DNA of 49,338 nt from IMG/VR virus record IMGVR_UViG_3300045988_118932. One strand, written 5' to 3'. The notes under the pieces were generated by a model. The model was not told the DNA's origin, did not search any database, and saw nothing but the letters and a program-made list of their open reading frames with translations. A program made the translations under genes and the position numbers. Position 1 is the first letter of the stretch, and every line of letters starts with the position of its first letter. Shown in pieces: positions 10,372 to 10,442 of this stretch. The stretch is from a virus.

Positions 10372-10442
10372 AGGGCATAAGCCGAAAGCGTTCGGCTGGT
10401 GAAGGAAAGCGTTCCTGACCGGGTTCGAATCCCGGATGCCCA
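10372..10442 (+). ncRNA. tRNA-like element 1 (acceptor plus T-arm, non-canonical core)
   Basis: The 5' GGGCAT pairs with the 3' ATGCCC. The T-arm is CCGGG-TTCGAAT-CCCGG. Hairpins GCCGAA-AGCG-TTCGGC and GGAA-AGCG-TTCC replace the D and anticodon arms. Confidence 0.5.

What the first reader, a model, noticed from the sequence alone, without database searches (positions are those of the whole stretch)
10372..10442. tRNA-like element 1 starts at the nucleotide after a stop codon and has duplicated GAAAGCGTTC hairpins instead of D and anticodon arms
A 6-bp acceptor (GGGCAT/ATGCCC) and a perfect T-arm (CCGGG-TTCGAAT-CCCGG) frame two hairpins. Both hairpins carry the same AGCG tetraloop and flanks (GCCGAA-AGCG-TTCGGC and GGAA-AGCG-TTCC). 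No 7-nt anticodon loop can be drawn. It is one of four such tRNA-like folds on the early strand; the others are at 11385, 14671 and 17498. Elements 1-3 are followed by CACAAA and element 4 by CACTTTG. Possible roles are RNase P/Z punctuation of the early polycistron, decoys for tRNA-targeting defences, Y-RNA/tmRNA-like modules, or att-site relics.
Basis: seen in the sequence. Interest (0 to 1): 0.7.

Follow-up and report, generated by a model that had tools for sequence, protein, structure and literature searches.

The report
Anticodon-less tRNA mimic in phage operon
A temperate gut phage carries, just after a gene's stop codon, a conserved RNA shaped like a tRNA but with no anticodon; it is one of several such mimics in these phages and most likely marks where host tRNA-processing enzymes cut the long early transcript.

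Summary
Window 10373-10442 (+) folds as a cloverleaf: a 6-bp acceptor stem, a canonical T arm, and two AGCG-capped hairpins where the D and anticodon arms would be. ARAGORN calls no tRNA, and the Rfam tRNA score is 18.8 bits against a 29-bit threshold. No acceptor plus T-arm combination of this quality appears in 200 shuffles.

The fold is conserved in metagenomic relatives. All 115 base-pair cells pair, and three pairs show compensatory double changes. In ten sequence contexts the upstream ORF ends -1 to +9 nt from G1.

E1 opens a conserved non-coding stretch: E1, a ~250-nt spacer, hairpin A, then E2. In the window a ~590-bp insertion splits it. The elements at 11385, 14671 and 17498 are also conserved structured tRNA-like RNAs. 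All are co-oriented with the early operon of a temperate, probably Bacteroidota (Prevotella-type) phage.

Most likely these are non-decoding tRNA mimics that RNase P and RNase Z cut to punctuate the early transcript, as with plant-mitochondrial t-elements or mascRNA. This is inferred, not shown. The att-relic, tmRNA and Y-RNA readings failed their tests. A trans-acting decoy role is not excluded. I found no prior description, so I class it as a new variant of a known kind.

The parts
10373..10442 (+). E1, an anticodon-less tRNA-like element. Acceptor 10373-10378/10436-10441; hairpin 1 10380-10397; hairpin 2 10403-10416; T arm 10419-10435; discriminator A10442.
   Evidence: Sequence. MFE fold. 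Covariation: 23 pairs, 100% of cells paired, 3 compensatory pairs. RNAalifold consensus in a 380-nt context. Shuffle test.
10039..10371 (+). Upstream cistron (110 aa, phrog_17289, unknown function). Its stop codon is 1 nt from E1.
   Evidence: In relatives, different upstream ORFs end -1 to +9 nt from G1.
9771..9801 (+). Bacteroidota-type promoter (TTTG-N19-TATATTTG) of the rightward early operon. It lies about 570 nt upstream of E1.
   Evidence: Pattern scan. No other intergenic match occurs on the + strand before 17596.
10443..10693 (+). Conserved non-coding spacer that always accompanies E1. It includes the third AAAACGTTC copy (10445-10453) and the TCTTTGAC box (10452-10459).
   Evidence: Alignment of 18 distinct E1 loci shows about 95% identity, 1-nt indels and no conserved ORF. 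Gene callers leave this gap empty in 8 metagenome contigs. The TCTTTGAC box is also conserved in the E1b subfamily.
10694..10743 (+). Hairpin A, a branched hairpin at the end of the spacer.
10744..11330 (.). Variable cargo insertion carrying the minus-strand gene 10917-11291. It is absent from many relatives, where hairpin A is followed directly by E2.
11331..11378 (+). Hairpin A', a second copy of hairpin A with a covarying outer stem (CCCTCCG/CGGAGGG).
11386..11461 (+). E2, a deviant tRNA-like element: an acceptor-like stem, a 14-bp hairpin and a T-like arm (G-TTCAATA-C).
   Evidence: RNAalifold on 6 variants: 26 pairs, 8 of them compensatory.
11500..11539 (+). Terminator-like hairpin with a conserved apex GUCC-GUGA-GGAU, followed by a U tract.
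14671..14737 (+). E3, a tRNA-like element with a canonical D arm, a 4-nt 'anticodon' loop, and G3·U70 plus A73. It lies 24 nt upstream of the RecT start codon.
   Evidence: Rfam tRNA 35.3 bits. Family covariation with 5 compensatory pairs and G·U in 4 of 4. Context.
17460..17497 (+). Second copy of the GUGA-capped terminator-like hairpin, immediately 5' of E4.
17498..17560 (+). E4, a mini tRNA-like element with acceptor and T arm only. It is followed by a Bacteroidota-type promoter at 17596-17626.

Best explanation
E1 is a genuine, selectively maintained RNA element: a tRNA mimic that cannot decode. It keeps the parts of a tRNA that tRNA-end-processing enzymes recognise. These are the acceptor stem stacked on a canonical T arm, a discriminator A, and a C-N-A tail. 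The D and anticodon arms are replaced by tetraloop-capped hairpins.

E1 is transcribed as part of the rightward early operon of a temperate, probably Bacteroidota (Prevotella-like) phage. I infer that host RNase P cuts at its 5' side, which leaves the upstream cistron ending at its stop codon. I infer that RNase Z, or an equivalent 3' processing activity, cuts after A10442. That cut would free the 5' end of the conserved non-coding spacer, and E2 would close the spacer at its other end. The sister elements E3 and E4 would do the same job in front of protein genes, releasing mRNAs with short A-rich leaders cleared of the preceding terminator hairpin.

Shown here: the fold, its conservation and covariation, its position, and its co-orientation with the operon. 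Inferred: the cleavages themselves.
For: 1. The fold is real and not due to chance.
2. Every substitution inside a helix preserves pairing across 5 variants: 115 of 115 cells pair and 3 pairs show double changes. When the pairing partners are slid, only 23-58% of cells pair.
3. The diverged E1b subfamily keeps the acceptor, hairpin 1 with its AGCG loop, and the T arm. The second hairpin ranges from a 5-bp stem with a tetraloop in E1 to an arm with a variable 25-45-nt insert in E1b. Some E1b copies encode ACCA.
4. In ten sequence contexts the upstream ORF ends -1 to +9 nt from G1, and twice the stop codon overlaps G1.
5. The only intergenic Bacteroidota-type promoters on the + strand are at 9771-9801 and 17596-17626, so E1-E3 are co-transcribed with the early genes.
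6. All bona fide tRNA-like elements in about 80 related loci lie on the operon strand. True tRNA-Met(CAT) genes occupy comparable early-region positions in about 18 relatives.
7. Many sister elements are followed 16-33 nt later by an ORF start, and several are preceded directly by a terminator-type hairpin.
8. E1 and E2 bracket a conserved non-coding spacer.
9. Established knowledge, not tested here: an acceptor plus T-arm minihelix is enough for cleavage by bacterial RNase P and by RNase Z and for CCA addition. Plant-mitochondrial t-elements are proposed to act this way (PMC1920247), and tRNA-like YrlA is cut by RNase P (PMC4201824).
Against: - There are no transcript-end data, so no cleavage has been shown.
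- The acceptor stem is 6 bp and the acceptor/T stack is 11 bp rather than 12, which may shift or weaken RNase P cleavage.
- The tail is CAA, not CCA.
- The AGCG loops, the GAAGCG motifs and the linker are conserved in sequence. That is more than a simple cut site should need and hints at a specific binding partner or a trans role.
- E1 diversity is low (5 variants), and shuffle control (a) was reached in 11 of 500 trials.
- In the window's own E3, a C·A mismatch weakens the acceptor stem, and the cloverleaf is not the MFE fold.
Confidence: 0.5

Rival explanations
1. Trans-acting tRNA decoy or sponge. The excised ~70-nt RNA is the functional product. It mimics the top half of a tRNA to titrate a host factor. 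That factor could be a defence nuclease, a nucleotidyltransferase or pyrophosphokinase toxin acting on tRNA acceptor ends or elbows, or a tRNA-binding enzyme. Because it has no anticodon, it cannot disturb decoding.
For: Loops and linkers, not only stems, are conserved in sequence between E1 and E1b: the AGCG loop, GAAGCG twice, and GGCTGG. Several independent families have lost only the anticodon loop or arm. Among them is a 58-59-nt derivative of tRNA-Met with the anticodon arm deleted, seen in at least 5 contigs. Early expression fits an anti-defence role.
Against: No partner has been identified. No defence or anti-defence signal was found nearby (PADLOC). The tight abutment to stop codons and start codons is not needed for a decoy. 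An anticodon nuclease could not be decoyed by an RNA that lacks the loop.
Confidence: 0.2
2. E1 is the 5' domain of one larger regulatory non-coding RNA or leader (E1, spacer, hairpin A, E2, then the GUGA-capped terminator hairpin). This leader would control early transcription, for example through antitermination or RNA-based immunity, as with the RNase P-processed C4 RNA of P1 or CI RNA of P4. The tRNA-like folds would be structural modules of that RNA.
For: E1 always travels with the ~370-nt conserved non-coding stretch (spacer plus hairpin A), whatever gene lies upstream. Terminator-like hairpins follow E2. The region sits where lambda-like phages have nutR/tR1, just after the cro-like gene.
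Against: Covariation within the spacer is weak: 2 compensatory pairs. L312 keeps E1, hairpin A and E2 but has a different spacer. No Rfam family matches. This reading is compatible with processing rather than opposed to it.
Confidence: 0.17
3. Decaying tRNA pseudogene with no function.
For: The elements clearly derive from tRNA genes. True tRNA-Met genes sit in similar positions in relatives. The window's E3 and E4 carry stem mismatches.
Against: All helix substitutions in E1 are pairing-neutral or compensatory. Short-loop anticodon arms are retained with compensatory stem changes in diverged E3 members. E1 is about 100% conserved where the adjacent protein is 75-79% identical. The element is kept next to several unrelated upstream genes.
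Confidence: 0.06
4. DNA-level element: an attP or tRNA-fragment relic, a recombination boundary between mosaic modules, or an operator array formed by the three AAA[A/G]CGTTC repeats spaced 21 and 40 bp apart.
For: E1 marks a junction where upstream genes differ. The repeat spacing is close to whole helical turns. The phage is temperate.
Against: Searching 185,579 species genomes for the T arm plus acceptor 3' strand found E1 only on a Prevotella sp. CAG:1092 scaffold. The other 19 hits were ordinary Bacillota or Chloroflexi tRNAs. The T loop is canonical, and compensatory changes occur in three of the four helices, with single wobble changes in the fourth, which indicates selection on RNA. 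The repeat spacing is not kept in E1b (15-16 nt). The integrase genes are at 7469-8400 and 23707-24660, not adjacent.
Confidence: 0.05

Closest known systems
Plant-mitochondrial t-elements, and more generally the tRNA punctuation of mitochondrial transcripts
   Same: tRNA-like folds that do not decode. They are embedded in longer transcripts at cistron boundaries and are thought to be cis signals for RNase P and RNase Z that create mRNA 5' and 3' ends (PMC1920247, abstract). A stop codon abuts or overlaps the element.
   Different: E1 is in a DNA phage of bacteria. It has sequence-conserved tetraloop hairpins. It heads a conserved non-coding spacer rather than a coding mRNA. Cleavage has not been shown.
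mascRNA / MEN-beta tRNA-like elements of MALAT1 and NEAT1 (from my own knowledge; not checked in a paper here)
   Same: A cloverleaf with a poorly conserved or shortened anticodon arm. It is excised by RNase P and RNase Z to define the end of a long RNA, and it yields a small tRNA-like RNA that gets CCA added.
   Different: These are eukaryotic nuclear lncRNAs. No homology is implied. E1 lies 3' of an ORF and 5' of a non-coding region.
YrlA-type bacterial and phage Y RNAs
   Same: A non-coding RNA with a tRNA-like domain that tRNA enzymes recognise, including RNase P cleavage and CCA addition (PMC4201824). Phage-encoded examples exist.
   Different: YrlA is encoded next to a Ro60 (TROVE) gene and has a Ro-binding stem. 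No such gene or stem is present here, and no Rfam Y-RNA match was found.
RNase P-processed regulatory RNAs of temperate phages: P1/P7 C4 and P4 CI (from my own knowledge)
   Same: Small RNAs cut by RNase P out of the leader of the operon they belong to, in the immunity or early region of a temperate phage.
   Different: Those RNAs are antisense regulators with only an acceptor-like stem. E1 has a full T arm and a cloverleaf. I found no target complementarity.
Canonical tRNA (Rfam RF00005) and the tmRNA tRNA-like domain
   Same: A canonical T arm (G53, T54-T55-C56-R57-A58, C61), an acceptor stem stacked on it, and a discriminator A. The element clearly derives from a tRNA gene.
   Different: There is no 7-nt anticodon loop and no G18G19 D loop. 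The acceptor stem is 6 bp. The score is below the Rfam threshold. ARAGORN finds no tag-peptide reading frame (it calls no tmRNA); pseudoknots were not examined. E1 has G3:C70, not G3·U70.

Membership tests
Canonical tRNA (RF00005) | 5-bp anticodon stem with a 7-nt loop carrying an anticodon | tested here: not met
   Hairpin 2 is 5 bp with a 4-nt AGCG loop in all 5 E1 variants. ARAGORN finds 0 genes.
Canonical tRNA (RF00005) | 7-bp acceptor stem giving a 12-bp acceptor/T stack | tested here: not met
   The stem is 6 bp (GGGCAT/ATGCCC) directly abutting a 5-bp T stem. A seventh pair would be A·A.
Canonical tRNA (RF00005) | T arm: 5-bp stem and 7-nt loop T54-T55-C56-R57-A58, closed by G53:C61 | tested here: met
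   CCGGG-TTCGAAT-CCCGG at 10419-10435. A compensatory G:C to A:U change occurs in L012.
Canonical tRNA (RF00005) | D arm with a 3-4-bp stem and a loop carrying G18G19 | tested here: not met
   This position holds a 6-7-bp hairpin with an AGCG tetraloop.
Canonical tRNA (RF00005) | Score at or above Rfam's gathering threshold | tested here: not met
   18.8 bits against 29. E3 at 14671 does pass, with 35.3 bits.
tmRNA | tRNA-like domain with G3·U70, plus a tag-peptide reading frame and pseudoknots | tested here: not met
   ARAGORN finds no tmRNA. The Rfam tRNA/tmRNA clan gives only the weak tRNA hit. E1 has G3:C70.
YrlA / bacterial Y RNA | Encoded next to a Ro60 (TROVE) gene, with a Ro-binding helix joined to the tRNA-like domain | tested here: not met
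   No TROVE domain appears in the ~40 ORFs scanned with Pfam, and not every ORF was scanned. No Y-RNA Rfam match was found.
t-element / mascRNA-type processing signal (a functional class, not a homology family) | tRNA-like fold without decoding capacity, inside a longer transcript at a cistron or RNA boundary | tested here: met
   Fold and covariation. ORF stop -1 to +9 nt from G1 in ten contexts. Single upstream promoter.
t-element / mascRNA-type processing signal (a functional class, not a homology family) | Endonucleolytic cleavage by RNase P at the 5' side and RNase Z at the 3' side | not testable with these tools
   This needs transcript-end mapping or in vitro cleavage.
attP / tRNA-gene fragment of an integrating element | Sequence identity with the 3' part of a host tRNA gene, located next to the integrase | tested here: not met
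   The genome-contig scan for the 22-nt T arm plus acceptor 3' strand found no Bacteroidota tRNA. The integrase genes are at 7469-8400 and 23707-24660.
Viral 3' tRNA-like structure (plant RNA viruses) | Located at the genomic RNA 3' end, with a pseudoknotted acceptor, and aminoacylatable | tested here: not met
   E1 is internal to an operon of a dsDNA phage and has an ordinary acceptor helix. Aminoacylation cannot be tested here.

The most novel reading that the evidence does not exclude
These phages make a set of non-decoding tRNA mimics early in infection, and the mimics act in trans. E1 would bind a specific host or phage partner through its conserved AGCG and GAAGCG features, for example as a sponge for an immune effector that attacks tRNA acceptor ends or elbows. 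The E3 family keeps the alanine identity set (G3·U70 plus A73) with no anticodon, so it would be charged by AlaRS for a non-ribosomal purpose. A variant of this reading is that E1 and E2 are the punctuation that excises the conserved spacer between them as a new regulatory RNA of the lysis-lysogeny region.
Probability: 0.2. Interest if true: 0.8.

Novelty: new variant of a known kind. Interest (0 to 1): 0.6.

Why it matters
If RNase P and RNase Z do cut these elements, temperate gut Bacteroidota phages would be using tRNA punctuation to mature their early transcripts. That strategy is well known from mitochondria and from a few eukaryotic lncRNAs, but I could not find it described for phage operons. 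It would explain how genes placed behind terminator hairpins obtain short, unstructured, A-rich leaders in hosts that do not use Shine-Dalgarno sequences.

The elements are invisible to tRNA finders, so they are systematically missed in phage annotation. The families that retain G3·U70 and A73, and those that lose only the anticodon arm, give directly testable material for asking what a tRNA body does when it cannot decode.

Tried and rejected
- **No cultured relative.** Megablast and blastn of the region against 50,697 GenBank phages found nothing. tblastn with RecT found only hits below 60% identity, to Flavobacterium, Pseudomonas and Burkholderia phages.
- **Two scans were largely or wholly wasted.** The 14-mer AAGCGTTCGGCTGG in viral contigs gave mostly random hits, with only a few new E1 contexts, one of them L312.
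- **The covariance model added no new members.** Model R1, built from the E1 variants, found no further diverged E1 copies among about 1 Mb of related loci. It gave only weak hits to the other tRNA-like families.
- **MAFFT misaligned E1b against E1**, so E1b was compared by eye.
- **No Rfam family other than tRNA.** A permissive scan (E up to 10) of 9000-19000 gave only chance-level hits elsewhere.
- **No sigma-70 promoter just downstream of E1.** The TTGACA inside the TCTTTGAC box has no usable -10 element.
- **The 14-codon ORF starting at 10460 is not coding.** It is truncated to 3-6 codons in L011 and L012.
- **The 'GTCCGTGAGGATAT' loop is not a K-turn.** It folds as GUCC-GUGA-GGAU, a GNRA-capped extension of a terminator-like hairpin.
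- **No defence annotation.** PADLOC gave nothing for the minus-strand cargo gene.
- **No prior description found.** Five literature searches returned no account of such phage elements.

Full report
**1. The observation**

Reading the window directly, ORF 10039-10371 ends with TAA at 10369-10371. After a single A (10372) comes the element:
- acceptor 5' strand GGGCAT, 10373-10378
- AA
- hairpin 1, A-GCCGAA-AGCG-TTCGGC-T, 10380-10397
- linker GGTGA
- hairpin 2, AGGAA-AGCG-TTCCT, 10403-10416
- GA
- T arm CCGGG-TTCGAAT-CCCGG, 10419-10435
- acceptor 3' strand ATGCCC, 10436-10441
- A10442, then CAAAA

This cloverleaf is both the minimum-free-energy and the centroid structure (-32.4 kcal/mol, z = -3.07, 0 of 200 shuffles as stable). 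GAAAGCGTTC occurs exactly at 10384 and at 10405. ARAGORN calls no tRNA or tmRNA anywhere in the window. Rfam's tRNA model scores the site at 18.8 bits, below the gathering score of 29. A purpose-written scan (6/6 Watson-Crick acceptor pairs, 5/5 T stem, TTCRANY loop) finds only this site in the window and nothing in 200 dinucleotide-preserving shuffles on both strands.

The description is therefore correct, with small errors:
- The paired element starts at 10373, two bases after the stop codon rather than one.
- The ACAAA tail follows the elements at 10372, 14671 and 17498. ACTTTG follows the one at 11385.

**2. Genomic setting**

The window is essentially a whole temperate siphovirus-type genome. 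Genes found include:
- portal, terminase and capsid genes on the minus strand
- an integrase in two ORFs at 7469-8400, and a second integrase at 23707-24660
- an HTH repressor at 9199-9708 on the minus strand
- a rightward early operon with RecT, a YqaJ exonuclease, DUF1351, an HNH endonuclease, DUF4494, VRR-NUC and a replication-organiser-like protein

Genes lack Shine-Dalgarno sequences. Promoters match the Bacteroidota consensus TTTG-N19-21-TAnnTTTG. On the plus strand the only intergenic matches are at 9771-9801, in front of the cro-like gene, and at 17596-17626. The only hit to E1 among 185,579 species genomes is a Prevotella sp. CAG:1092 scaffold. No cultured phage is related. E1 lies about 570 nt downstream of the early promoter, after the second gene.

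**3. Conservation and covariation of E1**

The upstream 110-aa protein has 14 relatives in IMG/VR. E1 follows it in all of them, nearly unchanged even where the protein is only 75-79% identical. Pattern searches added more contexts.

There are five distinct E1 sequences. On the 23-pair cloverleaf, all 115 cells form standard pairs. Three pairs show changes on both sides:
- acceptor pair 4: C:G to U:A
- T-stem pair 3: G:C to A:U
- outer pair of hairpin 2: A:U to G:C

Four pairs vary by wobble only; a fifth, single-sided G·U variants, also occur at two of the three compensatory pairs. When the pairing partners are slid, only 23-58% of cells pair. Diversity is low, and shuffle control (a) was reached in 11 of 500 trials, so this is good rather than overwhelming evidence. 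The same cloverleaf is RNAalifold's consensus when 380 nt of context are folded.

A diverged subfamily, E1b, keeps GGGCAT, hairpin 1 with its AGCG loop (stem GTGA/TCAC instead of GAA/UUC), GGCTGG, the T arm and ATGCC. Its second hairpin is expanded by a variable insert of 25-45 nt. Some E1b copies encode A-CCA after the acceptor, others A-CTA. E1 has A-CAA.

The invariant core is therefore the acceptor, the T arm and hairpin 1. The arm in the anticodon position is free to vary. The element plainly descends from a tRNA gene.

**4. Position relative to genes**

Across E1 and E1b I found ten sequence contexts for the upstream gene. In each, an ORF of 64-120 codons ends between -1 and +9 nt from G1. 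In two of them the TAG stop codon overlaps G1.

What travels with E1 is not the upstream gene but the downstream sequence. About 250 nt (10443-10693) are roughly 95% conserved, carry 1-nt indels and hold no conserved ORF. They end in a branched hairpin A at 10694-10743. Gene callers leave this stretch empty in eight independent metagenome contigs.

In many relatives hairpin A is followed at once by E2. In the window and some others, about 590 bp of cargo (10744-11330, with the minus-strand gene 10917-11291) is inserted. A second copy of the hairpin (11331-11378) then precedes E2.

**5. The other elements**

E2 (11386-11461) has three parts: an acceptor-like stem, a 14-bp hairpin whose sequence differs completely between lineages while the pairing is kept, and a T-like arm G-TTCAATA-C placed directly before the 3' acceptor strand. 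Eight of its 26 pairs are compensatory.

E3 (14671-14737) passes Rfam's tRNA threshold (35.3 bits). Its 'anticodon' arm is a 5-bp stem with a 4-nt loop. Diverged relatives keep this with compensatory changes. G3·U70 and A73 are invariant in 4 of 4, and the family has five compensatory pairs. E3 ends 24 nt before the RecT start codon.

E4 (17498-17560) is a 60-62-nt acceptor-plus-T-arm mini-element found in more than 25 loci. Its T stem covaries and its interior has no consistent fold.

The clade also contains:
- true tRNA-Met(CAT) genes in about 18 loci
- a 58-59-nt derivative of that tRNA lacking the whole anticodon arm, in at least five contigs
- further G3·U70 families

All of these lie on the operon strand.

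Many are followed 16-33 nt later by an ORF start. Several are preceded immediately by a terminator-like hairpin whose apex is the conserved GUCC-GUGA-GGAU, followed by a U tract. That hairpin occurs at 11500-11539, after E2, and at 17460-17497, before E4.

**6. Mechanism**

The conserved part of E1 is what the tRNA-end enzymes need. [quoted passage not shown]

Several facts point the same way:
- co-transcription from one early promoter
- strict co-orientation with the operon
- abutment to stop codons
- short A-rich leaders downstream of the sister elements
- terminator hairpins directly upstream of some of them
- E1 and E2 bracketing a non-coding spacer

The best-supported reading is that these are processing, or 'punctuation', cassettes. 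RNase P would separate the upstream RNA, which then ends at a stop codon or a protective hairpin. RNase Z would release the downstream RNA with a clean 5' end. The cuts themselves are inferred. I put this at 0.5.

Points against:
- the 6-bp acceptor stem (an 11-bp stack)
- the CAA tail
- sequence conservation of loops and linkers beyond what a cut site needs

**7. Rivals**

- **A trans-acting decoy, with the excised RNA as the product (0.2).** The conserved loops and the repeated, selective loss of only the anticodon favour it. No partner is known.
- **A larger regulatory leader or ncRNA of which E1 is a domain (0.17).** This fits the linkage to the spacer and the lambda-nutR-like location. 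It is compatible with processing.
- **A dead pseudogene (0.06).** Covariation, and conservation across different upstream gene contexts, disfavour it.
- **A DNA-level role such as att relic, recombination boundary or operator repeats (0.05).** The genome-wide search found no matching Bacteroidota tRNA. The T loop is canonical. Compensatory changes occur in three of the four helices. The repeat spacing is not conserved in E1b.
- **tmRNA and Y-RNA readings.** Both failed their membership tests.

**8. Comparison with what is known, and novelty**

Functionally the closest analogues are:
- plant-mitochondrial t-elements, which are tRNA-like structures at mRNA ends and likely cis signals for RNase P/Z (PMC1920247)
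- mitochondrial tRNA punctuation
- mascRNA-type elements (own knowledge)
- YrlA, a tRNA-like ncRNA that RNase P cleaves and that can receive CCA (PMC4201824)
- the RNase P-processed C4 and CI RNAs of phages P1 and P4 (own knowledge)

E1 is not a member of any sequence family in Rfam 15. Five full-text searches found no description of anticodon-less tRNA-like elements in phage operons. That does not prove none exists. I class it as a new variant of a known kind, with interest 0.6.

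Noticed in passing
window 11500-11539 and 17460-17497 (+); also more than 100 contexts in L570-L683: A terminator-like hairpin family. The lower stems covary, the apex is the invariant GUCC-GUGA-GGAU (a GNRA tetraloop) with an AU bulge, and a U tract usually follows. It is widespread in gut phage contigs. In 14 of 101 distinct contexts, a T-loop-like GTTCRANYC motif (taken as marking a tRNA-like element) lies within 110 nt downstream.
   Followed up: partly
window 10443-10743 (+): About 300 nt of conserved non-coding sequence (about 95% identity among relatives, 1-nt indels, no conserved ORF) between E1 and E2, ending in a branched hairpin. 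It may be a discrete ncRNA excised at the two tRNA-like elements. No Rfam match.
   Followed up: partly
window 10744-11330, with hairpin copies at 10694-10743 and 11331-11378: A cargo insertion hot spot flanked by two copies of hairpin A. Relatives carry here either nothing, a 124-aa minus-strand gene (as in the window, 10917-11291), or 187-aa plus 155-aa plus-strand genes.
   Followed up: partly
window 14671-14737; L011 5327-5399; L242 876-947; L273 5121; L290 3996: Several diverged tRNA-like families keep G3·U70 together with discriminator A73, the alanine identity set, while lacking a 7-nt anticodon loop. This raises the possibility that AlaRS charges them.
   Followed up: partly
L272 1794-1853; also L669, L438, L432, L641: A 58-59-nt derivative of the phage tRNA-Met(CAT) in which the whole anticodon arm is deleted but the acceptor, D arm and T arm are intact. 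It recurs in several independent contigs, and intact tRNA-Met occupies comparable positions in about 18 relatives.
   Followed up: partly
window 10384-10393, 10405-10414, 10445-10453; box at 10452-10459: AAA[A/G]CGTTC occurs three times, twice inside E1 and once 3 nt after the discriminator A10442. The third copy is exactly AAAGCGTTC in some relatives. The TCTTTGAC box that follows is conserved in both E1 and E1b. Its function is unknown.
   Followed up: partly
L429, L432, L438-L441 (E1b copies): Some E1b elements encode A-CCA directly after the acceptor stem, whereas others have A-CTA and E1 has A-CAA. So C74 and A76 are kept while position 75 varies.
   Followed up: no
window 9771-9801 and 17596-17626 (+); 9744 and 9862 (-): Well-formed Bacteroidota-type promoters (TTTG-N19-21-TAnnTTTG) flank the repressor / cro-like switch region, and one follows E4. 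Together with DUF4494 and the lack of Shine-Dalgarno sequences, this points to a Bacteroidota host.
   Followed up: partly
window 7469-8026 and 8032-8400 (-): The integrase near the repressor is split into two adjacent ORFs: one with an Arm DNA-binding domain (122 aa) and one with the catalytic domain (185 aa). This could be a frameshift or a pseudogene. A second, intact integrase is at 23707-24660.
   Followed up: no
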